Source: the human T2T-CHM13v2.0 reference genome, Homo sapiens
Strand: one strand, 5' to 3'
NCBI RefSeq assembly: GCF_009914755.1
Contig: NC_060946.1
Length of the DNA: 64,000 bases
Every line of letters starts with the position of its first letter. Position 1 is the stretch's first letter. Position numbers and translations under genes: made by a program. The notes beneath the pieces were generated by a model. It did no database searches. It saw only the letters and a list, made by a program, of their open reading frames with translations, and had not been told where the DNA came from. This document shows positions 1,362 through 59,811 of the stretch, piece after piece.

Positions 1362-2868
1362 TAATACCATTTTAGAATAGTTAGGCGAGCTTTGCTCAGG
1401 TTTGAAAGGGTCACGTAATGTTAATCACTAGGAAATACTTTTGTCTCAAGTAGTGTAAGCCAAGAAAATACTGTCTTGAGAACTTTGCCTGATGAGCTTT
1501 GAATGTCAGAGAAAGGAATAATATTAATTCCTACTTCTAGTTGAGTTAAAGTCATTTAATTTGATGTTTTGTTTCTGTATACCCTGCTTGAAAAACCAGA
1601 ATAGGCTTTTAAAACCTCTAAATGTGTATGTGTTGTTGTTGTTTTTTTGTTTTTTTTTTTTTTGCCTTTGGCAGACCTGTTTTGCAAATGACCAACTTTC
1701 TATATGAGTTTTTAACAAGAATGTTGCCACTTGTTACTTTTCACATTTGAAAGAATCAAATAACTTATTTTTAGGGTATTATAATTACAAATAGATTGTG
1801 GTTTTCTGCAGTCAGTGGAGGAATGTAAATAAACCATTGCTGCTGTAACTATATATAAACGCATGTAGGACAGGAGATGTGCTTGAAAACTGTGAAGCAA
1901 AAAGGAGTCCATCTTTCAGAAAGAGACAACCCTTTTCTTTAAGATAAATCCGATTTATGTGTTGTCTTAAGATAACGAATGACTTGTTTCTCAGTTTTGA
2001 AATACATAGCCCACAGTGTTGGATCAACACCTTCATAGCTTCACGAAGACCAAAATATTTCCTCTGTGTCCCTGGCCACAGGGATCCCTAGTCCTTGAAG
2101 GTGTATCAGAGGAGTCCATGTGTCGAGTGCCTGCTGGAAGAGGGCCAGGAGTAGACTGCGTGGAGGGGATAACTGCAGGTGGAAGGAGCTCTGCTCTTGA
2201 CCGTTTACCTCAGAGTCTGCACTACTGGGTATCTCCAAAGTTACAGCTTGTCAGCATTGCTTCCATCCGTCTTATTTCCACACATTTTGTCTTTTCTTGC
2301 TAGCCCTTTCCTTCTCGCCCAGGTTTTCACTAATGTTTGATCTAACACACTGAATTTAGTGAGGAGGACTTCAGGCCATTGTCTTAGACTATGATAAGGC
2401 CAAGTTCTGTGTTGAATGGGCTTCAGCCTTGCAGGTTGCATTAGCTCAGTAGCAGGTTTCAAAAAATGCTGGCCACTGATCATCAGCCTGTCTTGTTGAG
2501 TATAGTAGAGAGAAGTAGTTATTGGTGATCACATGTTGGTGAGCAAACTTAACTGGTAGCTCAAAACATATTTTTGGTTCTAAGCTATGGGTGCTTCCCA
2601 GCCAGGTGTCAGGACACTCTGCAAAGACCTAATATGTCACAGCATGCCAGGCTTACCCCTGTCCAGGGTCTGGCCCACCCCCTTAATGGATTCCCACCAG
2701 GGTTGTTTCTGGTTCTATGACCCACTTTGCTCTTTCCATCATTTCATGTCCTGCCATTTGCCCTTCCGTAACAAAAGTCACCTTCATGAGAGTACTCCTT
2801 GCGTCTGCTTTAATCTCTTCCAGGTATGTCATAAAAATGCAAAAATGTACAAATTTTGTACATTTGGG

Positions 2869-3376
2869 TGCTATTTGGGTGGGGAGATGGAGAGAAGGAA
2901 AACTGAAGAAGGTAAAATAGAATTGGGAAAACAGCCTAAAAAACTCTTTGATTACTTTGATAGATACCACTTATGGTAATTCTTTAGTTATAATAAGCTC
3001 TGTATTTAAAATGAAATTTTGAGACCAAGTGTTTTCTTTCCTTATACAGCCTGAGGTTCAGTCATCAGAACAGAATCGTGTGGTGAGGCCTTCTGCTTCT
3101 GCCAATTTTGTTTTGTTTTGTTTTCATTTCCTGCCACATGGCAGGTGCTGCTGAGAAGTACCTTCAGGAACCACTGAATATTCTAGCCCCATCTTTCTAA
3201 GGGTTCGGTGATGTAGAATGCTAAAAGGGTTCGGGCTGTTAGTCAGAGAGGGAGGAGGGTGTCTAGCATCGGCGTGGGCCTCTAGTTGTTCTTTTATTGC
3301 CCTTTATGATGTGTCTATTTTGCTTTTTCTTTCCTCCTTCAGTTTTCCTTCTCTCCATCTCCCCACCCAAATAGCA
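2869..3376 (+). repeat. Perfect 40-bp inverted repeat in non-repeat sequence (2869-2908 / 3337-3376, 428-nt spacer)
   Basis: TGCTATTTGGGTGGGGAGATGGAGAGAAGGAAAACTGAAG and its exact reverse complement; FSFPSLHLPTQIA appears in ORFs 2683..2970(-) and 3218..3421(+). Confidence 0.95.
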
Positions 3377-6266
3377 TCACCTTCCTCAGCCCTCTACTTT
3401 TCATCCCTATTCGCTTCTTAATAAATAAAAGCGAATCAAAAAGACAGCAAAGAGAAAGGAGAAACATTTTATAATGCAGAGTTTTGAGCAAAATACTTAA
3501 CTCTGTGTCTTTATATGCCACCACATCTCTTTAATTTTTAGAGGATATGAATATTTTGTCGTTTGTATTTCATAAGCCATCTGTACTGTGTTCAGACTCT
3601 GTGGGTTCTTTGTTGTTTAATTATAGGAAAAGGAGGTATAGGGCAGGAACTTTTTACATACTTGTGAATTTTGGTCAGTCCTGTGAAATGTAAGCCTCTG
3701 GCATTTATTCACGGACCATTGGGATAAACCAGGCATGTAGGTTCAATTTTTTTTGCCTTTGTTGGGATGCTGTGGCCAGTAGCCAGGGCCAGTCATTCCA
3801 GATTCATCCCCTGCCACTCTAGTCCCCAGGGACTAACAGAGTCCAGACAGTGTACATTTTCCTGGCTACGGACTTGACCTTCTGCTTCCTCTGTCCCACT
3901 GCATTCCAAAAATGCTAACAAGTGACTAGCGAGCGTAAATTTTATGTGTTGCAAAAGCAGTTGTGGAACTTGGGTTTCAATGTTTGCACCACTATTTGTA
4001 AGCAGGATGTTATCTCTAAATGATACATGTGTAACTGACCCAGGGGGGCTGCCTGGCCTCCTTGATGCTCTTCTGTGAGAATAATTGACTCTGGTAGTGA
4101 CAGAGCTGCCTGCGGCTACTAAGAAGCTCTGCTGTACTTAGGCCACCTGCCATTGTTCTGTCTCTGCTGCTGCTGCTGCTTTTTCTATTTTTAATAAGTT
4201 GCCAATTACTTGGTTTTTATAGTGATACCAACAGTTCACTAAAATGGGCATAGGAAAAATGTAGTTGGTTTCTAACCTTCAATTTCACTTATCCAGTGAA
4301 ATTAATGACATTAAACACTTTCATCAGTTATTATTGTGAAAGTACAGGTACATTTTTATCTTACTGAACATCATGGTTTAGTTTTTCCATTTTGAAGACA
4401 GTATACAACTATGTAGCTAAGAGCAGTTTGCCTAACATATGTTAATTTTCACAATGATAATCTCAGGTGTGTTCCACAGATGTGATCTAATAAATTGATC
4501 AACTGTTCCTGACCACTACTGGGCCACACTGGAGTGTGCTGAGTTCCCACCTCATAGTGAAAATTGTCAGGATCTTTTGTCTGTTGCATTCACTGATTAC
4601 CTCAAGCACTTAGTAGAAGTTTAATAAATATTTGTAGCATTGTAGTAAGCAAACAAATGTAATTAAGTAGATGGTGTTCACAGATTATCCATTAATATAA
4701 GGTGAGACCAAAGTTTTGTGCACCAGTACTGAAAAGGGATTACTTGGTATTGGCTAAGGTCAGAAGATTACTGGTATTCTAGATATGCTGATTCTGTGGC
4801 TTATAGATTAAGAAAGAATTTAGATATATATTAATGTAATTACTGAAAATCACTAGAATGGTTCACTGTTGGTTTGTCCATAGAAACACTAATCATCATC
4901 AACCTAGAAGCTTTGGGATCTAGGTGAAGTCCATTACTGAATCTTGAAAATGAGTCATTAATCTGAAAATTGACAGTTAAGCATTGAGCATTTTTAAGAA
5001 AGTAATTGAAAAAATATCTGGAATCTACCACTGCCTAACAGTAATACTAGTTTTATGACATTCTTGGTTTACTGTATTATCTAATTACTTTAAAAATGTA
5101 ATTGAAAGTGTTGAGTGTTTATCATCTGGAGAGCATTTTATTATAAATTAATCAGAACAGTAGTTTTGAATCCACAAGTGCAGTAAGTTTCAATGCTACT
5201 TTGATTGGCAGAACCCACCAAGTGAATTTAGGCAGCCAGAAGGGATTTTGATTATTGGGAAAGTCTTTTTGGGTTCTGAGGTTAAGGTGGATTTTATTCT
5301 TCTCATCTGTCATGACGAAGGGGTGATCCACGCAATAGTACTTAAGAAATAATGCAGTAGAGCCACATGCTGGCTTCCGTTTCCAGAGCTGCCTCCTGGG
5401 CCTTTACCTCTTTAAGCCTCAGTTTTCTCAACTGTACAGTGAGCTTCATAGAATTTACCTCAGGAAAGTGAGGTTTACACATTTAGGGAAATGTCCAACA
5501 CATAATGAGCCCAGAAATATATTTTTTTAATTTTTTATTTTTTGTTTTTTTGAGCATGGACATATTAGATATTAATATAGTTACTAAAATATCTGATTTC
5601 TGTATGAGATGCTCATTAAAGAACTTATTGGTGTAAGTATATGATTGGGTACTGTTTCTAAAGATCAGCAAAGTTTTGTCTTTTTTATTTAAACGATTCC
5701 CTGCTTAAGAATATAATTTTTAAAAGTATACCATTATAGTACCAAGAGAAAATACTAGAAATGTGGGACCAGACCTGACAAGACCTTCATGGGAGAAAAT
5801 GTAAAATTATATCAGAAGACATTAAACTAACATCTAAATAGACAGAGCTTTGTCATTCATGGTTAAGAAGGCTCAATTATTTTTAAAAATGTCAATTCTT
5901 CTTGAATTGGTATATAAATTCAAAGTAATTCCCATAAAAACGCCATGCTTTTTTTCTGAAACTTGATAAGATGATTTTAAAATTTATATGGAAAAGAGAA
6001 ATGACAGGAACAACAAGTGGGAGGATTTAACCTGCTAGATCCCTTGCCGTAAAGCTGTAGTAACGAAGAGCAGTGTGGTGTAGATGCAGGGGCTGAGGTG
6101 GGTCAGCGCGTAAGTGGGAAGCCTAGACAAGACCGCCACGCGTACATGGAATCTTGCTCTGTGGCGGAACTGGCCTGACAGTAGGGAGAGGCGACAGTTG
6201 ACACTGCAGTTTAGTTGGGGAAATAATGGACTTTTCGACAAGTGCTCTGGGATACTTCATATGGAT

Positions 6267-6525
6267 TGCGTTAGTCTCTTAGGGCCGCCGTAACAAAATA
6301 CCACAAACTGAATGGCTTAAAACATCGGACGTTTATTCTCTCACAGTTCTGGAGGCTAAAAGTCCAAAATTACTCGACCTCCGAAGGCTCTAGGAAGAAT
6401 TGCTCCCCATCTCTTCCTAGCCTCTGGTTGCTGGCAGTCCTTCACGTTCATGCCTTAGAGCTGCATCACTTCAGTTTCTGCCTCTGTCTTCACATGAATG
6501 TCTTTGCCTTGTAAGGATCAAGTCA
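6267..6525 (-). mobile_element. MLT1 (MaLR) LTR fragment
   Basis: ttagggccgccgtaacaaaataccacaaactgaatggcttaaaac...ttctctcacagttctggaggc. Confidence 0.8.
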
Positions 6526-6647
6526 TACACCACATACAAAAATAAATACCAAATGGATTCAGATAAATATGAAAAAAATTATTTCTAGAAACAAATATGG
6601 AAGAATATTTATGACCTTGGAGCAGGGATGATTAAACAGGATAACAT

Positions 6648-6794
6648 GGCTGGGCGCTGTGGCTCACGCCTATAGTTCCAGCACTTTGGGAGGCTGAGGC
6701 AGGAGGACTGCCTGAGCTCAGAAGTTCGTGGGCACCTCTACTGTGGTCACACCACTGCACCCCAGCCTGGGCGATGGAGTGAGACTCTGCCTCA

Positions 6795-6828
<34 letters not shown>

Positions 6829-6832
6829 TATA
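6648..6832 (+). mobile_element. Alu monomer (left/right-arm chimera or FRAM-like) with A tail decaying to (TA)n
   Basis: Left-arm start, right-arm end, single monomer length. Confidence 0.8.
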
Positions 6833-7219
6833 TGTATAATAAAATAAACGTAACAAGAATGAAAAAGTTGATACATGTTCATTATATCATGATAAGAACT
6901 TAAAGTCACCAAATGACATTATGGCCAAAGTGAGAGACAAGCTAGGAGAAGATATTTTCAGTACATGTGATCAACAGAGGATTTATATCCAGAATACAAT
7001 GCAGAACTCCTACTAATCAATAAGAAAAAGACCTAGTAGAAGAAAAAAATGCTCAAAAGAAACATAGAAATTTCACAGTAGAGAAAATCCAAATGGCCAA
7101 TAAATGTGGAGGGGGAGATACAACTTAATTAGTAATCAAGGAAATGCTAGTTAAACCACAATGAGGTCCCATTTTATACTCATAAAATTGGCAAAAATTA
7201 AAAGAATTAAGAAAATACC

Positions 7220-7523
<304 letters not shown>

Positions 7524-9119
7524 AAGAAAAAAACAAGTTTTGGTGTGGTTATGGAATAGCAGGAGCTTTTACTTTTCTGGTGGGAGTGTAAATTGTTGAA
7601 ACCACTTTGGAAAAGAGTGTAGCAATGTCTAGTAAAGTTGGAAAACATGGACACTCTATGAGCCAGCAGTTTCAGTTGTGGGCTGGTAACCTACCCCACA
7701 GAAGAGCTGTATGCATGTACAGGAGGCATGCCCTAAGATGTCTGCAGCAATGTGGCTTGTCCTGGCAAAAATTGGAAACCTTAATGCCCATCAGTAGGCA
7801 AATGTATAAATACAGCGTGGTACTCTTTACATTTACATGAATTTTAGGGACATAGCATTGTGTGAGAAAAACAAGTTGCAGAAGAATAAAGTAATAAAAT
7901 TCCACTTAAGAAACTCAGAAATACAACTGAAATGTTGTTTAGGTTACCAAGCATGGTGTGGTCAATCAAGGGAGTGCTAAGTTAAGGGGAAGTTAACGCT
8001 TGTGGAGTAGGGAAAGGTGGGATTATACAGGGGGCTTCTGAGTACCGGAAAGGTTATTCCTTAAGCTGAGTGGAGGGTATATAAAAGTTATTTCGTATGT
8101 ATTAAATATGTAATAAAAATTTTTCTCCAGAAGTTTTATTATTTTTTAAGAGTGGAAAAATAACACAAATGTCATCTCCATCCAAAAAGTAATTCAGGCA
8201 CTGAGTACTTATTTTTAAATGCGTTTTGAATTCTTTGCCAATGAGAGATGCCTGAAACACGGAAAGGAAAGACCTAGTGATCCTTGTTTGTCCCATGACA
8301 TTGGCATTGAGAGGCGTCTGCCGCTGTAGACATGACAGTGTATCTCAAGAGCAGCCTGAAGGAGGTTTTAGTGGCATGTGAAAGCACCGTCAACATTTTT
8401 ATCAGAGCAACAATATGCCTATCCCCTGTTCATTTTATTATTATTATTATTTTTTGGCAACTAAGTAATTGAGCCAGATGGAAAATGTTTCCCACATTAG
8501 GTTCTCTTTCAGCTTTCATGCATGTCAGCCATTTAATTTTACTGTTCCTAATCTCCTAATGATAAGACTTCAAAATGTGAATAATTGGCTAAGAGAGTCC
8601 AATTTATTCTCTAGAACAGAAACTTCTAAAGATAGCTTATACCTGCCCCTTTCTACCAATATCCATTTAGTTAATGGATAGTAAGAACAAAATAATAAAA
8701 CCAGCTTTTATTTCTTCCTAGCCTGTCTGAACATGCAGTCATCTGGTTGGTTAGCAGTTGAAAAGGCCCAAACCTTTATCTCACCATAAGAACATGGGCT
8801 TGGAAATCAGACAAACAAACCTAGATTCACGCCTCATCTCTGCACTTACTATGAGTAAAAACTCTGTAATTTACTTAAAGGCTCTGAACCTCGGTTCAGG
8901 ACATGGTGGTAGTTCTGCCCCTGGCTTCCCAGAATGGTGGCATTCTTACGCTAACCTGCCATGGCATGCATAAGAAGCATACCCCCAGTGAGAGGATCCC
9001 CTGCTGCAGTCACTAGTTGTGTATCTCAAGAGATTTTCACTTGAATACTCTGAGCCTTGGTTTCCTCATTTGCAAAGTGGGAAGAAAGACTTCCACCTCT
9101 CTGGGATAAAGAGAATGCA

Positions 9120-9414
9120 GGCCAGGCGCAGTGGCTCACGCCTGTAATCCCAGCACTTTGGGAGGCTGAGGTGGGTGGATCACGAGGTCAGCAGTTCAAC
9201 ACCAGCCTGGCCAAGATGGTAAAACCCAGTCTCTACTAAAAATACAAAAATGAACCGGACATGGTGACAGTTGCCTGTAATCCCAGCTACTCTGGAGGCT
9301 GAGGCAGAGAATTGCTTGAACCCAGGAAGCGGAGGTTGCAGTGAGCTGAGATTGCATCGCTGCACTCTAGCCTGGGTGACAGAGTGAGACTCTGTCTCAA
9401 AAAAAAAAAAAAAA
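9120..9414 (+). mobile_element. AluS
   Basis: Full dimer; TSD AGAGAATGCAG. Confidence 0.9.
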
Positions 9415-10186
9415 GAGAGAATGCAGATGTGAACACATGCATACTTGGTGACCTGCAAACTGCAGGCCTGCATCACCACTGTTGGAGACCTTGTACCCTT
9501 GCTTGTGGGATGCCCGCCTTGTGCCTTCCCCCCAACCCCCAGGCTGCTAGAGACCTCGCTTCCTTCCCCCACCTGAAAGGGTTTAACTATAAAACAGAGA
9601 TAGAAATATCTGTGGTACAAGTTCACTACACAGATCAAGTAGTCAAGTGAGATGAGACAGACAGTGAGTATGAAAAAGCTGTTGTCTCTCAGATTCTGTG
9701 GGAATATAGGCACAGATGATGCTCATCCTAACACCAGGCATTGGCCCCCTCACTGAGCAAGCCTGGTAATGTTATTTGTTCAACATGCAAAATTTGATCT
9801 TTAAAAAACAGCTTTGAAAGTAACATGGCTTGGACAGTCTTTTTCTTAAAATTGGTAAGGGAGTTTGTATATCAGTTTCTGCTTCTCTATTCATTGAAAA
9901 CTGTTAACACTTTGGTAAAAATTATTTTCTTTACCATTTTATACGCACAGCTTTCAGTTGTTAACACTGGTGTAGAATCTAAACTCATTTACACTATTTA
10001 AGTTTGCCCCTTTGACTGCAGTGGAGACGGTGTTAGGGCTTAAATAAAGACTGGCTTCAGAAACTATTAACATATTGTTGGTAGCAAACATTCATTGATA
10101 ACCGTCTTTCCTAGAACTTAATTAAATTGTAAGGAAAATATTCTTTACCTGTCACCTTAGTCCAGGAACCTGGAAATATGCTTGAC

Positions 10187-10399
10187 CAGAGTTTCAAAAC
10201 CTTGGAAATGACATTTGGGGCTGGGTAATTCTTTGTTGTGGGGGCCATCCAGTGCCTTGTAAGGTGTTTAGCAGCCTCCTAAGCCTTCTACCCACTAGAT
10301 GCTATTAGCACCCTGCCACCTCAGTCATGACAAACAAATGTCTCTATATATTGTCAGATGTCTCCTGAAGGGCAGAATCATCCTTGCTGAAAACCACTG
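10187..10399. mobile_element. MER20 (hAT-Charlie) DNA transposon
   Basis: taattctttgttgtggggg...gtttagcagc...ctacccactagatgc...gaaaaccactg. Confidence 0.85.
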
Positions 10400-10500
10400 T
10401 CTTACACTCTTCTTTTTCACTTCCCTCCCACATTTAGTCAGTTACCAGCCCTTTTAATACTGCTTCCTGAATATCTTAGTGAGATTTCTTCTTCATCTTC

Positions 10501-10757
10501 TTCTTTTTTGAGACAGGATCTTGCTTTGTCATCCAGGCTGGAGTGTAGTGGCATGCTCCTGGCTCACTGCAGCCTCAGCCTCCTACGTAGCTGGGACTAC
10601 AGGTGTGTGCCGCCACGCCAGCTAATTTTTTTATTTTTTGTAGAAAGGAGGTCTTGCCATGTTGGCCAGGCTGGTCTCTAACTCCTGGACTCAAGCGATT
10701 CTCCACCTTGGCCTCCCAGAGTATTGGGATTACAGGCATGAGCCACCATGCCCGGCC
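10501..10757 (-). mobile_element. AluJ-like, antisense
   Basis: Alu consensus, reverse orientation. Confidence 0.88.
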
Positions 10758-11958: not shown

Positions 11959-12333
<375 letters not shown>

Positions 12334-13365
12334 TAATTTTTAAATTGAATTTCAGTTGCCACATGTGGCTAGTGGCTACCATATTAAACAGGCTAGGTCT
12401 CAACTGTTAGTGATAGCTTAACCTTCCTGTTAAATGAGATTTTATGTCTTCTCGTGTATAACTTCTGATATTCTCCTTCCTTTCTTTTATGGAAAACTTT
12501 TCTGTATTAAGACTTAAACTCCTGCCGCACCTGGAGTAATAAACTTGTGGGAAAACTGAATAAAGTACTAATGCCACTGAACTGTACAGTTAAACACAGT
12601 TAAAATGGTAAGTTTTATGTTATATATATTTTACCATAATGGAAAGTCAAAGAGCACATGGTGAAGGGACACAAAGCCTGCAGTGAGAGGCCATCAGGGA
12701 GGCTTTCCCAGAGGAGGCGGCACCCTCAGTCTGAGAAGTATTGATACGAGCAGTGACCCCGGGAAAAGAGATGACAAGTGGGTTCTAACTTGGACCTGAA
12801 GGGGCTGGAGAACAAGTGGGGTCAGGCCCTGGTGTGGCAGACCGAGGAGATGAGACTTGGCCCATCCAGTCACGGGAAGCCACTGAGGGATTTTAAGCAA
12901 GCAAATGACAAGTTTGGATTCCATTTCAAGAAAGATCACTCTGGCTGCTCTGTAGAAAATGTATCAGAGGGTGGCAGAACTGCATCAAGGGAGACATAAT
13001 CAGGCTAATAACAATCACAGTGATAATAATAGCAGCTAGCATCCCGTGGTGCAGTGGTTCAGGAGGAAATGATGAGTGCCTGGGAGGCTGCATAGAGTGC
13101 AGTGATCGCACAGCTAGTAAATGATGGGCTTTGGAAAGATGCCAAGATTTCTGCTTTTGGGGGAAGTCTTTACTCATTTTGCAGTGCACTACTGTATAGG
13201 AATAGCTAATCCAAAGTCAACTGATAACTCTTCAAATATGGAAAAAGAACTCGGGTTCATATGACAAATAATGAGAGAATAATATGTAAGCTCTCTTCCT
13301 TAAAAAAATAATGTAGACAGGTACCGAGGAGAAAGATGCCTGTGGCTATAAATAAAGGGGTAGCA

Positions 13366-13807
<442 letters not shown>

Positions 13808-45404: not shown

Positions 45405-45492
45405 AGAGAAGGAGCAAGAAAGGGAAGAACAGTTAATGGAAGACAAGAAAAGGAAGAAAGAGGATAAAAAGAAAAAAGAAGCCACTCAGAAG
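45405..45492 (+). CDS. TNRC6B: TNRC6B coding exon (88 nt, phase 2 to 0): (R/Q)[29 protein letters not shown]
   Basis: ttactttaatag acceptor, AAG|gtaggt donor; translation matches the Lys/Glu-rich TNRC6B N-terminus. Confidence 0.95.
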
Positions 45493-47482: not shown

Positions 47483-50400
47483 CCATAGAAGTCAGATAAC
47501 CCAGAGATGTTTTTGTACTTTCCTTTGCGTCCGTGGCCACATGCCCTGTCACTGAGGTTGCAGTATGCAGGTCCACCAGCTGTGGGTGTTTGTAGCATTG
47601 CCCCTGTGGTTTCTGGGTTCTTGTCGCCGTGCCTCGCACACATTGCACCCTCCACCTCCAACTGGAGGGATGTGAGATTAAACCTCAGTGAAAGTTTTCT
47701 TTCCTTAGGACACTCACACATTTCCTCTACTAAGTTGATACAAAAATCGGATTTTGCAGTCTATGGAGATGAGTGATTAATAGGCTGGGTACCAAGGTAC
47801 TTGAGCAAAGGCTGTTAACAAGAGGATGCCAAACAGAGTGATTTAGAGAGTATATATTCCTCTTCATTTTTAACATACATAACAGTGTTTTCTTAAACTA
47901 CAAATATCAATACCTAAAATGATTAATAAAATATGCCTCTGTAATATGCCTTTGATTGGATTCCACAAAGAAAAATGATTTAAAATAAAGATGGTGTGAA
48001 TGTACTTGAGAGTGAATGAGATTATTTATGCAGAGAATGTAGTTTATGTAGCTGGACAGTCTCTCCTATGTGCCTTCATCTGCATTAAGAACTGATGAAG
48101 AAGTGATAGCAAAGGGGAAAATTACCGTAAATAAAATTTTTAAGTGATTAATTTTATGAACAATAAAAATTCTATCGTTTTTGCTCAAAAATGTTCCAGA
48201 TCAGCTTGACATAGAATCTAGGCTGACGCAGGCTGATGCGTGGCCTTTGATCTTGTTTTATTATACTGAACCATTGCATAATTTCAGAATTAAATTCTGA
48301 TTTAGCAGTTTTAAGGAGAGCACAAAGCTTACCATGTGATTATCTTCGTGGTTTCCAACCTTATTGTAGAGACATCACCTCAGCTAGGAGCCATAAAATG
48401 TGCTATGATGCAAAGAATCGTGGAGAACGTGCCAGAGATCTATCATGTGGTCAGTGGTTCATTCATTCGGTCCGCAAACATTTGTGGTGCCTCTTCTAAG
48501 GGCTTCCACATCTCTCATGCTGCTTTCCCCAGTGCTTTTTGACCACCTCTTTGTGTCCATCTTCACTGTTAGACTGACTGTAAGTTTCTTGGTTTTATTC
48601 GTATTTGTATGGCCAGTAACTAGGGCAGTGCCTGGTGCAGGATAATCACTCAGAAATTGTTTAATAAGTGAATGGTCAAGAATGAAGGTGGAAACATAAT
48701 TTTCTTGAAGAATTGACACTTACTTAAAGCTAAAACTAAATTACCTCCACACAGAAATTAAGCATGAGCCTTTTCCAGTGTTCATTGGTTGTAGCAGTTG
48801 GCTCTTCCTGGAGCCATCACTGAGTAAACTGGTAGATACCCATTCATGAGAGAGGTGTCAAAGAAGGGTTCCATTCACATTCATTTAGGCTGATGCTGCT
48901 AAAGGAGCATTGTTTAGCGTTGGCAGAACACATGCTTTGATCATCCAGCTTCTCGCCGTCTGGGGGACAGCTTTTAACAGAACCCACATGATAAAACATA
49001 TTTGACATTATTTGGGCTTGTTGCTTACAATGGGAAGGCACTGACTTCCTGTATAACTGATCTTCAAAATGGCATTCTAAGAAATAGTTACAATGATATA
49101 AAACCTAAATTGCCTTCGGGAATTGGTATGTGGCTGCATTGTCATTCATTCTTGGATAAGTAAAGATGTAGAAAAATTACACAAGAATATTTTCAGTAGA
49201 ATTGAGCTCTGTAACAGTACTGGGAAACATTCATTTTTAAGATGCTGGATTCCACAAATTCACTGTAATAGAATTAGCTTGTCATTTAACACAGGAATGT
49301 AGGAAACACACCAGGAAGTTCTACAGGCGGATCCTTTAACTCTTATTTAGAGTCTGATGGTGTGCTGGGATCCATTGCGAGGTGGGCTGGTCAGCTACAG
49401 GACCTTCCTTCCAGGGATGATTGTGTTTTTGTGAACCCCCATGGCCGTAATCCAGTACGATTACCAGCCACAAATCATCAGACTTCTTCTTTGCTATATG
49501 AATATTTTTATTACAAAAGTCAGATAACCAAGTAAAAATGCTTTAAAAGATTAACAGTTGGGAAAATGGGTCAGAATCACCCACAATCTCAAAAATTTAG
49601 TGTAACCACTATTGGAACAATGGCTTAGTTCCTTTTGGATGTTTTGCTTGTGCATCACCTTTGTGGTTTTATTGTTATAAATTAGATGCCCTCCTTTATT
49701 TTCCCCTCTTAAAAATATCAGAAGCAGTTTTCTGTAAGGCTCCTAATCATCATTTCCAAACTCTCTGAAGTCCATTACTATGTTCAGCCTGTCCAGCCTT
49801 CTAGGTTAATCATTTCCATAGACGTATTAGTTACTATATAAAGAAATACTTTCTTTTTTTTTTAACAAAGCACCCTTGATTTGTCCAAAATTTACATATT
49901 TCAATCTTACTGCTGTACTTCATGCTATTTTATATAAGTGTTGATAATAACAGCAAACATTTATTGAGCACTGCATAGCATATCTGATTTAATCCTTACA
50001 GCAGTCCTTTGCAGGGTTTATACTATTATTATCTCCATTCAATAGATAATAGAAAACTGGGGGTCTCATAGCCAGAAAGTGACAAGGTTTGGTTTTGAAT
50101 CCTGCTTTCCGACCATGACGTCTGATGCCTCTGATGATGAGTCCCTGAGGTTTTGCTTTTAGATTTCAGATCAAGTGTTTGTGTCTATACTCATAGGGGA
50201 ATCTTTTTGTGTCTATGGCTAATTTAGTTTCTGGGCCACATTCATGTGATTTTTCTCTAGTCATAGCATTCAAAATGCAAGTAGCATTCTCAGTGGGACC
50301 TCATCGTATAATGAGTGGAATGCTTTTTTTTTTTTTTTTTAAGTTTTACTATTCTTCCTAATGGTGGTCATGTAAATTATAGCTGGACATATGGCCACAG

Positions 50401-50567
50401 TCTCTGGAAGGATGTCTGAACTGACTCCCAGCTCCTTTTTCTGGATTTCAGCTATGCCTGTGTGCCTGACAGCTTGGATTACTTGAGTTATCAGACTAAA
50501 GTAGTCTGAAAATACAGTACTGAATTAAAAAGCAAATCTCATTTACTTTTATCTGTTTATTTTGCAG

Positions 50568-50589
50568 GTCACGGAACAAAAAACCAAAG
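50568..50589 (+). CDS. TNRC6B: TNRC6B coding microexon (22 nt, phase 0 to 1): VTEQKTK(V)
   Basis: Long pyrimidine tract ending tttgcag, AAG|gtaaga donor; bridges the frames of the flanking exons exactly. Confidence 0.93.
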
Positions 50590-50834
50590 GTAAGATCTTT
50601 TTTTTCTTTTTAAATTATTTAGAACCTTTTGTGTTTAGCTTTTACACTGTTGCTGACTCAGCCTCCAATCCACTGAAAAGAGAGTGGGCGTAGAGTAATT
50701 AAGGTGGGTTGTTTGCAGTCACTGAGGAGCAGTAATGACAAATTGAAAATACTTGTATTGGTGTTTCTAGTTGGCCTTAAATTTTTTAGGAGTCAAAAGA
50801 GTAAATACCTTGTTTTAAAAAGTATATGGGTCAT

Positions 50835-51130
<296 letters not shown>

Positions 51131-52469
51131 TCATGATTGTGAACTGAACCTTTTCAAAACTTTTTTTAAAGAATAATAGCAAAAAACAAACAACAGCTTT
51201 TAATTTACAGATGGGAATTACAGCAGTTTGTCCACCACCTTGACCCATGGCATGCATTGAGTCTGATAATGGAATATTGCACCTAGGATGTTTACTCTGC
51301 CTTCTAAGCTAAAACTTAGAATATGCTTTTTTAAAAGATAATACATTTTGAGTAGCTTAACTCTGCTAAAAAATAGTGACATGTTGTAAACAGAAGCAGG
51401 TGCCCCTTGGGTCATTCTCAATCTAATAGTCCATGTTGTTTTGGCTTCTTGCTCGCCTGTTAATTTTGATCATGTAGTTTTGTCTGGTGATTGTCACATT
51501 TTTGTTCATTTCCCCTTCAGAATGAGAGAATTAATTCTTTGAGATAGCTCCTCTCCTTGCCCACTTAAATATGTGTTTCTCAATTAGGTATGCATAAGAA
51601 TCATTTGCATAAAATCGTCAAAATATGCAGTCCCAGGCCATGGCCCTAGCAGATGTATTTTGAAAAGCTCTGCAGGTGACCCCAGTACATGTCCCTAGTT
51701 GAGAATCACTGCCTTAGATGAAGGGAATTAGATGTGACTGTGATGACTTGGAGGAGGACAGGGGTGACAGGGAGGTCAAGGCTTGATGGGAAGCCCTGTA
51801 ATGATTGGTTTCTTCATTGTTTTGTTTTGTTTTGTTGGACTACCAGACCAAAGCCTGTCACACAATGATGAAAGAGTAATAAGACAGTGCTAATTTCTTA
51901 GGAAACTTAGTTATGGAAAATAAATTCTCGTATGACTAGGCGTTACTATAATAAATTTCTAACCAAAAGACATTTCAAAGGAGAATGTAGTCCGGGAGTT
52001 TGTAGTGATGTGTAAAAGAAACCATAATTATTAGTTATAATTAATTGGTTACAGAGAATAGTATCTGCCCTTGTACATTTCCTCAGTTTCAGCCCAGAAG
52101 TAGGCTTTATTTTGGAAGGATCTTTGTAAATTACTTGCTTGAAATATAAATGATACTTTACCATAGAAATAGTGTTATGCATACTGGTACAGTGCCCATA
52201 CTTTCTAAACCAACATACTTTCTAGAAAAGGATTTGGGCACTTAAGTATTTATATTTGTAGGGCTTTTTGATGATTTATGGGGACAGCAGATGAGAAAAC
52301 TGGCATTTTTTCCTGGATAGTCTAGACTCTGGTTGCTGCAACATGGTGGTTGGGTTCCTAGGCCTGGCCACAAGACTGATGCTTGCAAAGCCAAGTGTTA
52401 GTTGTGCTGTAGAACTGAGCTCCTCTGTATGGTAAGTGGTGTTGGGAAACAGAAAATCTGTTAGGCATC

Positions 52470-52500
<31 letters not shown>

Positions 52501-52778
52501 TTTTGAGGCAGAGTCTCGCTCTGTCACCCAGGCGATCTCGGCTCACTGCAAGCTCCGCCTCCCGGGTTCACGCCATTCTCCTGCATCAGCCTCCTGAGTA
52601 GCTGGGACTACAGGCACCCGCCACCATGCCCGGCTAATTTTTTTTTTTTTTTGTATTTTTAGTAGAGACGGGGTTTCACCATGTTAGCCAGGATGGTCTT
52701 GGTGTCCTGACCTCGTGATCCGCCCGCCTCGGCCTCCCAAAGTGCTGGGATTACAGGTGTGAGCCGCTGCACCCAGCC
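52470..52778 (-). mobile_element. AluY-like, antisense, with a small internal deletion
   Basis: gcaagctccgcctcccgggttcacgccattc; TSD taggcatctttt. Confidence 0.9.
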
Positions 52779-53745
52779 TAGGCATCTTTTCTTATAGAAA
52801 AAATTTGGGAGGGGTACCAGACCTATTCTCAAACACACTCTTCTTTCCTCTACCAGTCTTAAAAATCAAACTTTCCTTTCTACTCACCACCAAATTTTTT
52901 TTTTTCCAATTGGGGGCTTTCTCATACCTACTATATAATGAAATACAGTTTCACAGTCTCCCTACTCTCCCTACCTCCCACCACTCCAATCAAAAGATAA
53001 CATAAAATAATCCTAAAGGGAGGTGAGAGGCCATTTCAGTCTCCTAAGGGATTTAATTGTTAGACAGCAAGTAAAAATACCAGTTGTCCCTGGGGTATGT
53101 TAAGACTGTAAACAGAGGGAGGGCCTGACCTTTCTATTGTTGGGTCTAGGTTTACAGCCACATCTTCATCTTTATTCCCAGTAAGCCCACCTTGGTACTG
53201 TAAATCTCCTTCTTCTCTTACCTCAGCTGACATGTCTGGGGAACGTGTTCCTTTCCCCAAAGATGGTGTCTTCCTCAGGCAATCTGCCCTTCACTCTGAA
53301 TCTACCCATCTTTCCCCAACAGTTGCTAGAAGCACAAAGAAAAGACTGTTGGTGCCAAGTCTCTGGTTGTGTAGAGGACTGAAGTGAGATTTTTCTGTAT
53401 TTCAGAGTAGTAGTGTATTCATTATATATTCTTCCTGTATTCTCCACCATTAAAAAAAACTGTGAGAATTCTGTGAGGAATAGGGTAGAGATTTCAAGTG
53501 GAGGTTATGTGAAGACATAGGCTAGAGCTGGCTTGCTACCAGGTATCAAATAATAGAAAGCACTTAAGGTAGAAGCTAATATCCTCCTTCGTTGGATTTT
53601 AGAGTAGAACTAAAAGAGTTTGATGGATTGATGTAATCGTTCAGATTTAACAGGGATGAAGTTTAGGATTAAGTTTAGGATTAAAAAGCCCAATTGCGTA
53701 GACTATGTAATGGAGGAAGTTGGACATAGATATTGAGCCTTGTTA

Positions 53746-53985
<240 letters not shown>

Positions 53986-53991
53986 TTAATA

Positions 53992-55441
<1,450 letters not shown>

Positions 55442-55788
55442 TTGAGAGAGGCTTTAGTTTAACTTAATATTGATTGGATAATGATATGTGGGTGGGGGAA
55501 CATTGAGAAGTCTAAGATACCAAGCAGGTTTCTGACTTGAGCAGCTGGTTCGGTGATAAGTTCATTCTTTGAGGGTGAAGAAATGAGATTGGGGCTAGGA
55601 AACAAGTTTGAGAGGAAGGGAAAGATGATAAGTGGTAGTTAAAGCCAGAGCATGGAAGAGTTTGTACTCAAGGAACTGAAATGTGGAAAGGGTGCAGACC
55701 CTATTGTCACATTGATTTTGTTTTGTTTTGTTTTGTTTTTAAGCCACTACTTATGGCCAAATTCATTTGCCATTCTCCAGTCAAAAGC

Positions 55789-56120
55789 CAGGATTGCCAT
55801 TATGGCCGTGGACAAAGTTGGCCTCACTGCCAACTTTTTTGTACTGCCCATGAGCTAAGAATATTTTCTACGTTTTTTAATTTATTGGAGAAAAAATGGG
55901 GACAATATTTCAAGACGTGAAAATGACAGGAAATTCATATTTCACTGTCCGTAAATAAAGTTTTATGGGAGCACAGCCACACTCATATGTTTACACATTG
56001 TCTATGGTGCTTTGGCCCCACAAGTGCAGAGTTGAGTTGTTGTGATGAAGACCATATGGCCAGTAAACCCTAAAATATTTACTATCTGGCCCTTTACAGA
56101 AAGTTTGCTGATCCCCCCTG
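55789..56120. mobile_element. MER58B-like (hAT-Charlie) DNA transposon
   Basis: gagctaagaat...aaataaagttttat...taaaatatttactatctggccctttacagaaagtttgctgatcccc. Confidence 0.85.
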
Positions 56121-56792
56121 ATCAAGAGTAGGAGAAGCCCACACAGGAAGAGGAAAGGAAGAGCTGAAGCGCTAGCTGGAGCACGTCTCACAGAAATGGG
56201 AGGGAGGGAATGACGAGTGGTGTCAGAAGCTGCAGAAAAACCGAAGAAGGAAAGGTCCAAGATGGGCTGGTTAGACTGGCAACAAAGATCACTAGTGACT
56301 TATGAGGAAAGAAACTTCCAGGGAGATGTTCAAGGCAAAAGCCAGTGTGTGTTGGGTTGAGGAGGGAGTGGAAGGTAAAGAAATAGAGGCAGTGCTGAGA
56401 GGTTACTGAAAATTGTTCAGTACACATTGACCGCTCACTGCATGTCATCAGATTTAAAATGTTCAGCCTAGAATATCTTTTCTAGGCCTTGTTTGTATTT
56501 TAACTACTACTTTAAAAACATTTCTAGGTCATTCTTTTTTATGTTTGATACCATTGAGATAGTTAAAGGAAATAATAGTTTGTACTAGTTCTGTGCAGCT
56601 GCTGTGTTCAGAACCCTGCCTGGTTTGGAAGTTTCTTAAAGAGCACTTTTATCTGAAAAAGTAGCATCTAATTGGAGTTTTCAGAAATAGGGGCAATTGG
56701 AAGTTTAAACTGTGAGATACAAGAATGGAATAAGAAAAATGGGATGAGGAAGGGGAGGAGATTCAATTATTAGAGCACGTAAATGGTTCTTA

Positions 56793-57479
<687 letters not shown>

Positions 57480-58595
57480 CACAATGTTTTTATTTCCCTA
57501 TAGTACTGAGATCATGTTTAAGCCACAAACCTTTCCTCTGGAAGATAAGAAACTATGCACTTACTTTGAACAGCTCATCTTTAGAAAAACTTGCACAACT
57601 TACAAATCCTTAAGATTCAGAAAAGAGACAGCCTGAAAAGTAACACATTCAGACTTTTAATGATAGCTTCTCTTGCCCTTTATCGTCTAACATTCTGGAC
57701 CATGATGATGGGTGATGCACACTGATTCTGATGTCTTAAGTTTGGACTTTGGGAGTCAATTTGGATCAGACATCCTGCCTGAAAAGCTGTGTTGCTCTCC
57801 AATTAGTGCCGGCAATTCTGGTTGGCCTTTAAAAGCTTAACATTCTTGGATTCACAGAAAGGTGTGATTTAAAAAATAGAGTAAGAATTCATTCAGGTGC
57901 TGAAACACAGTTTGCTATGACTAAGGTGGTGTCTTGGGCGTTTTCTGACTGTTTCCTGGAGGTTTTGTTTTTTTCTTTTTATACTTTGACCTATTTGTAC
58001 ATGATGTCCTGGAGTTTGAATGACTAATCTCCTGGGCCAGAGCACACTGTATTGGGAGGAAAGTGGTTGAGGTGTGTTCCCATTTTATAATGACTTTATC
58101 ATTTACAATCCATTCTGTCTCTGATGTGGTGGGAAAGTGCCCTGAGGAACTTTTGCAAGGAATCTTACATGATACGTGATACCTACCAAATTTCTTCAGT
58201 TGAAACAGTGCTGTGAATGTTTTAAAGTGAGTCAAACTGGTGTTCAGCCCTCAGTCCTGCAGGTCACTCTGTCATGTCTTGTTGTTTTTCTGGATTGAGT
58301 TAAAAGTATGTAGTAGACCTGGGTAACTTATAATGAAGATTCTTGACCTTTATAGCAGGGCAGCCTTACAGAAACATAGCTCTTTCTGTCCTAAAAACCA
58401 GTTGGGATGAATTTCTCCAGTCTCTGCCAACTTCTTGTTTATTCTCATAATAAGATAAAAGGGGATTGCGAATGCCCTGTGCTATAGAATCCTCCAGTAA
58501 CAGATAGAAAATTAATATTAAATAATCTTCATTCATTCATTTACCAGTTATGTATCCATCTGTTGTTATAGGTCATGAATATTAGATAATGACTA

Positions 58596-58895
58596 ATTTT
58601 CTTTTCTTTTTTTTTTGAGACAGAGTCTTGCTCTGTGGCCCAGGCTGGAGGGCAGTGGCACGATCTCGGCTCACTGCAACCCCCGCTTCCCAGGTTCAAG
58701 CAATTCTCGTCCTCAGCCTCCTGAGTAGCTGGGAATACAGGCGCATGCCACCACGCCCAGCTAATTTTTGTATTTTTAGTAGAGACTAGGTTTCACAATG
58801 TCGGCCAGGATGGTCTCGATCTCCTGACCCTGTGATCTACCCACCTCGGCCTCCCAAAGTGCTGGGATTACAGGCGTGAGCCATCGCGCCTGGCC
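58596..58895 (-). mobile_element. AluSc-like, antisense
   Basis: TSD gactaatttt. Confidence 0.9.
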
Positions 58896-59811
58896 GACTA
58901 ATTTTATTTTCTTAAGTCACACATTTATTCTGCTCATCAGATTTTGGATCCTCTGACCTCCACTCCCCCTCCCCTTACTGGGAGGCCTGGTGCTGCCTTG
59001 TGATTAGCTGAGGTTAGACATGGGGTTACCTGGAAATTGCTGCAGGCACCTGCTCTTTTCTCCTGTCACCCACAGTATGTTAATGTCCAGTAGTGGCATA
59101 GATTGGGCCGCCTGATTTCTGATGATGTATCTCTCTCATAAAGGAGCCAGTTCAGCAAGCAACATGCTGGCCCCGCATCATTTTAGCAGTCAAAGCAGTA
59201 CTACCCCCAGAGTTGGCCCTGACGTTACCCTGGGAGGCAGGGATTTGGGCCTCAGAATCATCCGAACTGTCAGGCTTGATGATTATTTCTGTACGACTTC
59301 CAGCCTCTATTTGCCAGGTAGATTTTTATGGAGAGGGTAGTGATCTTCTGGCAGCATGCAGCGAGGGAGGTACAGATCTAAGAGAGCCTTCTCTGTATGT
59401 TCGACGGGAAGAGCCAGAGGGTCCGGCAGAGTGCGGTTTCACGGTTGCCCCGACATTCCCACGCTGTGTGCGGGCCATTTTTAAAATTAAGTTTAAAAAA
59501 ATCAAATGATTTAAAGTAAACAGAAAAAGTATTTACATTTTGAAATTTCTATTTTAAAGAATTGGGAAGAAACACTTTTTTTTTTTTTTTAAAGAAAAGC
59601 AAAAAGATTTGTAACATTTCTAGTATTTACACAGAGAGCGGTGCAAGTCTTTGAGTCCAGGTAGCTGTAGAAACCAGAACCAAGCTGAGTTTGTGATTTT
59701 CTAGGCCTGGAGTTTCTTGTAAGAGTCCACTCTGTGCCATGCCCTAAGGAAGAAAGAAAAGATGAAAGATGGGTCCTTGCCCTCAGGAAGTCATGGCCTG
59801 GTGAGGGAGAA

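What the first reader, a model, noticed from the sequence alone, without database searches (positions are those of the whole stretch)
2824..59471. Candidate system: a structure-masked cryptic exon in each of three successive TNRC6B introns
Seen in sequence: three non-repeat intronic segments share one layout, namely pyrimidine tract + AG, a short exon-sized stretch, a GT donor, then downstream sequence complementary to the exon end and donor. They are 2824-2911 (partner 3314-3376), 49351-49381 (partner 49438-49484) and 59304/59318-59369 (partners 59392-59398 and 59456-59471). Two begin with AG|GT, like recursive-splicing sites. Adding the 88-, 31- or 52-nt forms to the normal mRNA gives a frameshift or stop. 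The first two have the same entry and exit phases as the next real exon (88 vs 88 nt; 31 vs 22 nt), so mutually exclusive use would stay in frame. Established: RNA duplexes that bury 5' splice sites repress exons, and poison exons tune dosage of RNA-regulatory genes through NMD. Inference: TNRC6B dosage or N-terminus may be controlled by RNA-fold switches that respond to helicases, ADAR or elongation rate. Pseudo-exons are common, so the pattern could be partly chance.
Basis: partly seen in the sequence, partly recalled or inferred. Interest (0 to 1): 0.8.

Follow-up and report, generated by a model that had tools for sequence, protein, structure and literature searches.

The report
One hairpin-masked pseudo-exon, two chance ones
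Only the first of the three proposed hidden exons in human TNRC6B introns stands out, because a long single-copy RNA hairpin is predicted to cover its exit splice site; the other two look like ordinary chance pseudo-exons.

Summary
The three segments are at the stated coordinates and the splice-site and frame arithmetic is correct. Only the first (C1) exceeds chance.

**C1.** It has a strong acceptor joined to AG|GTATGT (2822-2829), an 88-nt pseudo-exon (2824-2911) and a donor AAG|GTAAAA. A single-copy inverted repeat gives 40 perfect bp (2869-2908/3337-3376), a 10-nt bulge, then 13 bp over the donor (2909-2921/3314-3326). The duplex is about -87 to -92 kcal/mol (z -15.5, 0 of 300 shuffles). 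It is the longest low-copy inverted repeat found in the 292 kb fetched around TNRC6B.

**Prior listing.** C1's AG|GT is already in Zhang et al. 2018 (S1 Table) as a "putative" recursive splice site: hg19 chr22:40599438, 3'ss MaxEnt 11.28, phastCons 0.996. TNRC6B was found only in the S1 file of the six held supplement files.

**C2 and C3.** Their complementarity is chance-level:
- C2: z -1.4 to -1.7, rank 12 of 166 pseudo-exon donors.
- C3: weak donor, z -2.8 before correction for selection.
- Local folds: z -1.3 (C2) and -0.7 (C3).

The window holds 205 comparable pseudo-exons.

**Not testable here.** No expression, editing or arm-conservation data were available, so function is inferred. The three-part "system" is not supported. 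C1 is a reasonable candidate for a structure-silenced recursive or poison exon.

The parts
2803..2823 (+). C1 acceptor: pyrimidine tract and AG
   Evidence: Read. 82% pyrimidine at -20..-4 with C at -3. 3'ss MaxEnt 11.28 in Zhang 2018 S1 Table.
2822..2829 (+). AG|GTATGT recursive-type junction. Listed as putative recursive splice site hg19 chr22:40599438.
   Evidence: Distance to intron end is 42,580 = 45404-2824. Three of the four listed sites that I mapped fall exactly on an AG|GT, and the fourth is 7 nt off. phastCons 0.996 in the table. Reconstituted 5'ss GAG|GTATGT scores 4.88 on my rough matrix.
2824..2911 (+). C1 pseudo-exon, 88 nt, with a purine-rich 3' half
   Evidence: Inclusion gives a stop in exon 45405-45492. 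It is open if it replaces that exon.
2912..2917 (+). C1 donor GTAAAA (after AAG)
   Evidence: Rough matrix score 3.14, against 5.9-7.5 for the real exons. Paired with 3318-3323 at probability 0.92-0.95.
2869..2908 (+). Left arm, perfect 40-bp part of the helix (inside the pseudo-exon)
   Evidence: Pairs with 3337-3376 at -78.1 kcal/mol. Pair probabilities are at least 0.95 for 38 of the 40 pairs; the two at the bulge end (2907, 2908) are 0.93 and 0.83..
2909..2921 (+). Left arm, 13-bp extension that covers the donor (-3 to +10)
   Evidence: Pairs with 3314-3326 with two G-U pairs, -11.6 kcal/mol, probabilities 0.81-0.95.
3314..3326 (+). Right arm, partner of the donor segment
3327..3336 (+). 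10-nt bulge on the 3' strand of the helix
3337..3376 (+). Right arm, a pyrimidine-rich 40-nt perfect complement. It contains an acceptor-like ...ctccttcag ending at 3343.
49351..49381 (+). C2 pseudo-exon, 31 nt (chance-level; listed for completeness)
49438..49484 (+). C2 proposed partner; complementarity not above chance
   Evidence: Duplex -36.7 kcal/mol, but z is only -1.4 to -1.7.
59304..59369 (+). C3 pseudo-exon, 66-nt or 52-nt (from 59318) forms, with a weak donor (chance-level). It lies antisense to the annotated last exon of lncRNA LOC124905121.
   Evidence: The lncRNA is from the hub's gene table.
59456..59471 (+). C3 proposed distal partner
   Evidence: Duplex -24.2 kcal/mol with G-U pairs. 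The 186-nt fold is not exceptional, z -0.70.

Best explanation
The proposed three-part system comes down to one real feature and two chance pseudo-exons.

**The real feature (C1).** It sits in the long intron after the start-codon exon, which is about 68 kb in the main transcript and about 90 kb in another isoform. C1 is a recursive-splice-type cryptic exon: a very strong, conserved acceptor fused to a 5'-splice-site-like GTATGT, followed 88 nt later by a moderate donor.

**Shown here.** The purine-rich 3' half of this pseudo-exon and its donor are predicted to be locked into a 53-bp helix. The partner is a pyrimidine-rich copy about 400 nt downstream.

**Inferred mechanism.**
- The helix forms once the partner arm has been transcribed.
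- It hides the enhancer-like purine tract and the donor from SR proteins and U1.
- The 88-nt exon, which would bring a premature stop right after the start codon, is therefore kept out of the mRNA.
- If the acceptor is used at all, the regenerated site GAG|GTATGT wins over the buried donor and the exon is removed in a second, recursive step.

C2 and C3 are ordinary pseudo-exons with no special structure.
For: - **Helix is real.** 47 nt at 96% plus a 13-nt extension; -87.3 kcal/mol; z -15.5 with 0 of 300 shuffles; the 601-nt fold has z -9.3 with the helix in MFE and centroid; pair probabilities are about 0.81-0.95 at the donor and at least 0.95 for 38 of the 40 pairs in the perfect part.
- **Not a repeat family.** The 581-nt segment matches only itself and its own inverted arms. 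The same search found a neighbouring multi-copy element easily.
- **Rarity.** It is the only low-copy inverted pair of at least 30 nt, at least 88% and within 1.5 kb in the window apart from one transposon-like element (3 pairs in all). It is the longest of 3 low-copy pairs among 17 in 292 kb of the gene. It ranks 2 of 589 donors for long-range duplex energy; the other very strong values (donors 27762, 27637, 27679, 17340) lie where one search found long inverted repeats.
- **Recursive-type site.** It is listed as putative RS site 40599438 with 3'ss MaxEnt 11.28 and phastCons 0.996, and the mapping was checked. Only 15 of 1306 AGGT sites in the gene have as pyrimidine-rich a tract. My arithmetic therefore puts the chance that an arm of a given repeat starts within 100 nt downstream of one at about 1%.
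- **Splice-site competition.** The reconstituted 5'ss (4.88) is stronger than the pseudo-exon donor (3.14) on my rough matrix. Zhang et al. report this pattern for 67% of RS exons (passage).
- **Consequence of inclusion.** It gives a stop codon in the next exon.
- **C2 and C3 are at chance level**.
Against: - There is no evidence that the acceptor or pseudo-exon is ever used. TNRC6B occurs only in the S1 (putative) file among the 6 held supplement files of Zhang 2018, so by that search it is not among the 342 junction-supported candidates in three cell lines. No paper found mentions it.
- Conservation is known only for the four AGGT bases, from a published table. Conservation of the arms, and above all of the right arm, could not be tested.
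- TNRC6B is among the genes richest in ultraconserved non-coding elements (passage), so the AGGT may be conserved for a DNA-level reason.
- A nearby listed "putative" site (window 1131) is simply the end of a transposon-like element. The list therefore holds false positives.
- The donor lies in the weak 13-bp, A-U/G-U part of the helix (-11.6 kcal/mol).
- Predicted accessibility of the donor 9-mer is 5.7e-4. That is no lower than for two of the three real, used donors (2.1e-4 and 2.9e-5; the third is 4.5e-3).
- The splice-site matrix I used is recalled and rough.
Confidence: 0.4

Rival explanations
1. C1's inverted repeat is a neutral by-product of mutation, such as a local inverted duplication or template switch, that happens to lie beside a conserved non-coding element. 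The pseudo-exon is never recognised and the helix has no role.
For: - The arms differ by 2 substitutions and a 10-nt indel. That fits a fairly young, drifting copy.
- No expression evidence was found.
- TNRC6B introns are rich in ultraconserved elements, so a conserved AGGT can be incidental.
- A co-location chance of about 1% per repeat is a post-hoc figure.
- At least one other low-copy hairpin exists in the gene with no link to a splice site that I looked for.
Against: - The repeat falls on the donor of the pseudo-exon that follows one of the 15 strongest of 1306 AGGT acceptors in the gene.
- Both mismatches in the donor segment are G-U compatible on the sense strand. This is weak evidence: by my estimate, about 1 in 4 for two transitions.
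Confidence: 0.4
2. One reading: three structure-masked cryptic exons, one per successive intron, act together as RNA-fold switches that set TNRC6B dosage or N-terminus.
For: - All three have acceptor, exon-sized stretch and GT donor, and the frame arithmetic is right.
- By raw duplex energy, C2 and C3 are 7th of 588 donors.
Against: - The raw energies reflect G+C content. After dinucleotide shuffling C2 has z -1.4 (30 of 300) and C3 has z -2.8 (1 of 300).
- Among 166 pseudo-exon donors the z-scores have mean -0.11 and sd 1.04. C2 ranks 12th.
- Local folds have z -1.31 and -0.70. Long-range ranks are 161 and 83 of 589.
- C3's donor is weak.
- With 205 pseudo-exons in 64 kb, one per intron is guaranteed.
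- The pseudo-exons show no likeness to the exons they would replace.
Confidence: 0.03
3. The C1 helix is chiefly a double-stranded RNA substrate, for example for A-to-I editing or dsRNA-binding proteins, with no part in splice-site choice.
For: A perfect 40-bp duplex is well above the length I recall as needed for promiscuous ADAR editing. The helix is predicted with near-certainty.
Against: No editing data could be consulted. The search for TNRC6B with A-to-I, conserved and intronic gave 9 papers (8 listed), none about this site judging by titles and abstract starts.
Confidence: 0.1
4. C1's strong acceptor opens an alternative terminal exon. Transcripts would splice from the start-codon exon to 2824 and end at the AATAAA signals at 3420-3429, giving a truncated, non-productive isoform with the hairpin in its 3' end.
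For: Two overlapping AATAAA lie 44-53 nt after the right arm. The reading frame from the start codon stops at TAG 2918-2920 if the donor is not used (read).
Against: AATAAA is common in A+T-rich introns. No cleavage-site or transcript evidence was available, and I ran no chance test for it.
Confidence: 0.05

Closest known systems
Vertebrate recursive splice sites with RS-exons (Sibley et al. 2015, recalled, not held; Zhang et al. 2018, PMC6110456, passages and S1 Table seen; Blazquez et al. 2018, PMC6224609, abstract seen)
   Same: AG|GT junction with a very strong acceptor in a long intron. A downstream donor defines a short RS-exon. The regenerated 5'ss is stronger than the RS-exon donor. 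Inclusion would be non-productive. The site is already in the published list of putative sites.
   Different: No junction, lariat or sawtooth evidence for this site. The long helix over the RS-exon donor is not part of the described model. My search for recursive splicing + RS-exon + hairpin found one paper, where 'hairpin' occurs once (listing only).
Exons repressed by RNA structure at the 5' splice site (MAPT exon 10 stem-loop, SMN2 exon 7 terminal stem-loop; recalled)
   Same: The donor is base-paired, so U1 access would be limited.
   Different: Those are short local stem-loops at real, regulated exons. C1 is a 53-bp helix closed over about 400 nt at an unannotated pseudo-exon.
Pairs of conserved complementary regions that control unproductive splicing, e.g. 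BRD2 exon 3b (PMC10789245, abstract seen; catalogue PMC8052449, supplement search only)
   Same: Long-range intronic/exonic complementarity is proposed to set inclusion of a poison exon in a regulatory gene.
   Different: Conservation of C1's arms is untested. TNRC6B was not found in the 3 held supplement files of the catalogue paper, which may not hold the whole catalogue.
Inverted repeats from transposons (inverted Alu pairs, short palindromic DNA elements)
   Same: They form long intronic double-stranded RNA. Examples in the same window are at 54076-55441 and 1126-1279.
   Different: C1's arms are single-copy in the genome. The transposon-type examples have tens to thousands of relatives.

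Membership tests
Recursive splice site with RS-exon | AG|GT motif with a strong 3' splice site | tested here: met
   C1: ccag|GTATGT, 82% pyrimidine tract; MaxEnt 11.28 in the published table. The C3 short form is also AG|GT, but its regenerated site is weak at 2.13. C2 is not AG|GT.
Recursive splice site with RS-exon | Lies in a long intron, far from annotated splice sites | tested here: met
   C1: introns of 67,874 and 89,832 nt in hg19. The upstream exon ends ...ATGAG at window -22,450. C1 is 42.6 kb from the next exon.
Recursive splice site with RS-exon | Evolutionary conservation of the AGGT | tested here: met
   phastCons 0.996 for the four bases, taken from Zhang 2018 S1 Table. I did not compute it, and it says nothing about the arms.
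Recursive splice site with RS-exon | Downstream 5'ss defines an RS-exon, and the regenerated 5'ss competes with it | tested here: met
   Donor AAG|GTAAAA lies 88 nt downstream (3.14). The regenerated GAG|GTATGT scores 4.88 on a recalled, rough matrix.
Recursive splice site with RS-exon | Recursive junction reads, lariats or sawtooth read pattern | tested here: inconclusive
   TNRC6B occurs only in the S1 file of the 6 held supplement files, so it was not found among the candidate, sawtooth or lariat tables. No RNA-seq data can be searched here.
Structure-masked 5' splice site / long-range RNA structure controlling an exon | A stable helix that includes the donor, beyond what composition gives | tested here: met
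   Met for C1 only. Not met for C2 (z -1.4 to -1.7) or, after selection, for C3.
Structure-masked 5' splice site / long-range RNA structure controlling an exon | Both arms conserved, with compensatory changes | not testable with these tools
   No vertebrate genomes or alignments are on hand.
Structure-masked 5' splice site / long-range RNA structure controlling an exon | Exon use changes when the helix is disrupted and restored | not testable with these tools
   Needs a minigene or antisense experiment.
Poison (NMD-coupled) exon | Inclusion brings a premature stop upstream of later exon junctions | tested here: met
   C1: stop in exon 45405-45492. C2: frameshift. C3 52-nt form: stops inside. 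The 66-nt C3 form is in-frame and open, so it is not a poison exon.
Poison (NMD-coupled) exon | Inclusion isoform exists and rises when NMD is blocked | not testable with these tools
   Searches for TNRC6B + poison exon gave 0 papers. TNRC6B + unproductive splicing gave 3 papers: two I read in passages and the third I saw as a listing only; none bears on this. TNRC6B + nonsense-mediated decay + cassette exon gave 3 papers, 2 listed. I read the TNRC6B passages of one, which concern the downstream exon 6; the other I saw by title and abstract start only.
Mutually exclusive exon pair | Same phase and compatible length | tested here: met
   88 vs 88 nt; 31 vs 22 nt, same phase. Both substitutions stay open. 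By itself this has a 1-in-3 chance each.
Mutually exclusive exon pair | The two exons are homologous (tandem duplicates) | tested here: not met
   C1 vs the real exon: 418 of 500 shuffles align as well. C2 vs the real exon: 20 of 500. C1 lies 42.5 kb from the exon it would replace.
Transposon-derived inverted repeat | Arms belong to a multi-copy family | tested here: not met
   C1 is single-copy, and the control element was detected. The search states that very common words are skipped, so the counts are lower bounds.

The most novel reading that the evidence does not exclude
C1 is a conserved recursive-splice/poison exon placed directly after the TNRC6B start codon. A 53-bp long-range helix sequesters its enhancer-like purine tract and donor. 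The helix acts as a co-transcriptional timer: the time the polymerase needs to make the partner arm about 400 nt downstream, together with helicases, pyrimidine-tract binders on the right arm or A-to-I editing of the duplex, decides between silent recursive removal and inclusion of a stop-bearing exon. That choice would tune the dosage of a core microRNA-silencing factor.
Probability: 0.12. Interest if true: 0.65.

Novelty: new member of a known kind. Interest (0 to 1): 0.3.

Why it matters
TNRC6B is a dosage-sensitive scaffold of microRNA silencing. A switchable stop-bearing exon just after its start codon would be a direct handle on its level.

A long helix over the donor of a recursive-type exon would add a structural layer to the current model, in which the regenerated splice site competes with the RS-exon donor.

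As it stands the value is modest. There is one well-defined, cheaply testable candidate with exact junctions and arms given. The finding also shows that complementarity spotted by eye near pseudo-exons is mostly what composition and selection from hundreds of candidates produce.

Tried and rejected
- **Rfam.** No family reached gathering score in the whole window. At E up to 1 around C1 there were only two weak chance matches.
- **Transposon origin of C1.** Rejected: single-copy, with a positive control.
- **Raw duplex energies.** They made C2 and C3 look special (7th of 588). This disappeared after composition-matched shuffling.
- **Predicted accessibility of the donor 9-mer.** It did not separate the candidates from real donors. 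I dropped it as a criterion. I ran it on 6 sites only, because each took about 20 s.
- **Homology between pseudo-exons and the exons they might replace.** None found.
- **Locating the upstream exon.**
  - The first try, at the 89.8-kb intron start, found no clear exon. I did not find that isoform's exon end in T2T.
  - The main transcript's exon was found through the second intron listed by Zhang.
- **Literature, all 10 searches used**. Nothing on these pseudo-exons or on the hairpin.
- **Supplement searches for TNRC6B.**
  - 0 hits in PMC10156609 (3 files), PMC8052449 (3 files) and PMC6224609 (3 files).
  - 0 hits in PMC4482092 (2 files; file 1 was not searched).
- **Not available.**
  - Sibley 2015 is not held.
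These may hold recursive-site lists, RIC-seq contacts and ultraconserved-element coordinates that bear on C1.
  - Earlier findings of this scan were not open.

Full report
**What was claimed.** Each was said to have a pyrimidine tract + AG, a short exon-sized stretch, a GT donor, and downstream sequence complementary to the exon end and donor. Together they were read as RNA-fold switches acting on poison exons.

**Are the sequence features there?** Yes.
- C1: ...ctgctttaatctcttccag|GTATGT at 2824, 88 nt, then AAG|GTAAAA at 2912.
- C2: ...ctcttatttag|AGTCTG at 49351, 31 nt, then GAG|GTGGGC.
- C3: acceptors before 59304 and 59318 (the latter AG|GT), then GAG|GTACAG at 59370.
- The three lie in three successive introns of the annotated transcript, whose exons are 45405-45492, 50568-50589 and 61207-61548.
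- All three are single-copy in the human assembly. The same search readily found 1841 first-look candidates for a neighbouring repeat, so the "non-repeat" statement holds at that sensitivity.

**Frames.**
- The three real exons are open in one frame.
- The upstream exon of the main transcript ends ...TTTATGAG|gttggt at window -22,450. I located it through the second TNRC6B intron listed by Zhang et al.. The start codon is therefore the last full codon before the C1 intron.
Adding C1 gives a stop in exon 45405-45492. Adding C2 shifts the frame. Adding the 52-nt C3 gives stops.
- C1 in place of the 88-nt exon, and C2 in place of the 22-nt exon, stay open.
- Equal phase is a 1-in-3 event. The pseudo-exons are not similar to the exons they would replace (418 of 500 and 20 of 500 shuffles align as well). 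Nothing therefore supports mutually exclusive pairs.

- The real exons score 5.9, 7.0 and 7.5. C1 scores 3.1, C2 3.4 and C3 -0.6.
- The + strand of the window has 328 acceptors with at least 70% pyrimidines and a pyrimidine at -3.
- At C3-level thresholds there are 205 pseudo-exons of 25-100 nt (166 donors). With donors of 3.0 or more there are 39.
- One pseudo-exon per intron is therefore guaranteed.

**Complementarity, C2 and C3.**
- Raw duplex energies of exon end + donor against the next 105 nt put both at 7th of 588 donors. Both regions are G+C-rich in an A+T-rich window.
- Against dinucleotide shuffles of the partner region, C2 has z -1.43 (30 of 300 as good) and C3 has z -2.80 (1 of 300), or -2.47 with the 52-nt exon (5 of 300).
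- Across the 166 pseudo-exon donors the same z-score has mean -0.11, sd 1.04 and minimum -3.08. C2 ranks 12th.
- C3 fell just under the score cut-off and was not in that set. Its z would be about 2nd of 167, which is what picking the best of that many gives.
- Local folds are unremarkable: C2 z -1.31 (23 of 200) and C3 z -0.70 (50 of 200).
- Against the next 510 nt they rank 161 and 83 of 589.
- The repeat finder sees only a 14-nt, 86% pair for C2. That pair involves the exon start, not the donor.

**Complementarity, C1.** This one is real.
- Arms 2869-2915/3330-3376 are 47 nt and 96% complementary. A second register, 2909-2921/3314-3326, adds 13 nt.
- The folded form is 40 perfect pairs (2869-2908/3337-3376, -78.1 kcal/mol), then a 10-nt bulge (3327-3336), then 13 pairs with two G-U over the donor (-11.6 kcal/mol).
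- Pair probabilities are at least 0.95 for 38 of the 40 pairs in the perfect part. They are 0.81-0.95 at the donor segment.
- Whole-duplex energy is -87.3 kcal/mol. Against shuffles of the next 510 nt, z is -15.5 (0 of 300).
- A 601-nt fold has z -9.3 (0 of 20), with the helix in both MFE and centroid.
- In the window only three inverted pairs of at least 30 nt, at least 88% and within 1.5 kb exist: a multi-copy pair at 54076-55441, a multi-copy palindromic element at 1126-1279, and C1.
- In the 292 kb fetched around the gene there are 17 such pairs, 3 of them low-copy. C1 is the longest of those.
- The AG|GT itself is not in the helix.

**A caution on "masking".**
- The donor sits in the weak, A-U/G-U part of the helix.
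- The predicted probability that the 9 donor bases are all unpaired is 5.7e-4 for C1. For the three real, used donors it is 2.1e-4, 4.5e-3 and 2.9e-5.
- Computed burial of a donor therefore does not in itself mark a silent site. C1 differs in the length and perfection of the adjoining helix over its purine-rich exon body.

**What is already in print.**
- Zhang et al. 2018 (PMC6110456; I read passages and parts 293-294 of S1 Table) list 36,870 "putative" recursive splice sites. Their criteria are AGGT in introns of at least 5 kb, more than 2 kb from annotated splice sites, 3'ss MaxEnt of at least 5, and phastCons of at least 0.5 on the AGGT.
- For TNRC6B the table gives site 40599438, which is 42,580 nt from the intron end, with MaxEnt 11.28 and phastCons 0.996. 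It appears in introns 40552186-40642018 and 40574144-40642018.
- 45404 - 42,580 = 2824, which is C1's first base.
- Of the four listed sites I mapped by distance, three fall exactly on an AG|GT (1131, 2824, 58572). One is 7 nt off (8501 against 8508).
- TNRC6B was found only in the S1 file among the six held supplement files. By that search it is not among the 342 junction-supported candidates from three cell lines.
- C2 and C3 lie less than 2 kb from an exon, so that pipeline would have excluded them.
- The listed site at 1131 is the end of a transposon-like palindrome, so the list contains false positives.
- TNRC6B is named among the 100 non-transcription-factor genes with most ultraconserved elements (PMC13513235, passage). 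A conserved AGGT can therefore be incidental.
- I found nothing on the hairpin or on use of these pseudo-exons.
- The only TNRC6B splicing event I saw described concerns the downstream GW-rich exon 6 (PMC11039986, passages).

**Most likely mechanism (inferred).**
- C1 has the anatomy of a vertebrate RS-exon. It has a strong conserved acceptor and a regenerated 5'ss GAG|GTATGT (4.88) that is stronger than the RS-exon donor (3.14).
- Zhang et al. report that relation for 67% of RS exons.
- Only 15 of 1306 AGGT sites in the gene have as pyrimidine-rich a tract. By my arithmetic, the chance that an arm of a given repeat begins within 100 nt downstream of one is about 15 x 100 x 2 / 292,000, or roughly 1%. 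This figure is post hoc.
- I take the helix to hide the purine-rich tract and donor once the right arm is transcribed. The stop-bearing 88-nt exon is then either never defined or removed by a second splice from the regenerated site.

**The main rival** is that the repeat is a neutral local inverted duplication beside a conserved element. I rate it equally likely.
- Two substitutions and one indel in 53 nt fit a copy some tens of millions of years old if it is drifting. That age is my inference from a recalled mutation rate.
- The alignment test in the next steps decides between the two.

**Verdict.** One well-defined candidate remains. Its recursive-type site is already catalogued as putative. 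Its hairpin was not found in any of the searches named above.

Noticed in passing
window 1126-1279: A short palindromic, transposon-like element. Its arms 1126-1155/1250-1279 are 90% complementary and the fold has z -7.1. It has many relatives at 75-86% identity across the genome (1841 first-look candidates, 40 scored). Its terminal CAG|GTTGAG is listed as putative recursive splice site 40597745 (phastCons 0.82) in Zhang 2018 S1 Table, which is probably a false positive of that list.
   Followed up: partly
window 54076-54446 and 55067-55441: A 375-nt, 96.5% inverted pair of a multi-copy repeat, 620 nt apart, in the intron before exon 61207. I did not name the family. It would form a very long intronic double-stranded RNA, with possible relevance to editing or back-splicing.
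   Followed up: no
window 50566-50573: The real 22-nt micro-exon 50568-50589 itself starts with GT directly after its acceptor AG (gcag|GTCACG). An annotated coding exon here therefore has the recursive-type junction.
   Followed up: no
window 59304-59369: The 66-nt form of C3 is in-frame and free of stops. It would insert 22 residues rather than act as a poison exon. The segment also lies antisense to the annotated terminal exon of lncRNA LOC124905121 (58416-59743, minus strand).
   Followed up: partly
window 3420-3429: Two overlapping AATAAA signals lie 44-53 nt after C1's right arm. With the strong acceptor at 2824 this could define an alternative terminal exon. I ran no chance test and had no 3'-end data.
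   Followed up: no
window 3327-3343: C1's right arm reads as a long pyrimidine tract ending in CAG (3341-3343), so it looks like an acceptor. The helix pairs this CAG with CUG 2903-2905, bringing a donor-like and an acceptor-like site face to face across about 430 nt.
   Followed up: no
L016 7729-7841 (T2T chr22:40,593,729-40,593,841; outside the window, about 78 kb upstream): A second low-copy hairpin in a TNRC6B intron: 35-nt arms, 94% complementary, a 43-nt loop, fold z -8.1 (0 of 200). It gives only sub-threshold matches to generic plant microRNA-precursor models in Rfam (best 35.5 bits against a gathering score of 100).
   Followed up: partly
L008 747-757 (window about -22,454 to -22,444): The start-codon exon of the main transcript ends ATGAG and has a weak-looking donor, GAG|GTTGGT (1.09 on my rough matrix). 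That is weaker than the site that would be regenerated at C1 (4.88).
   Followed up: partly
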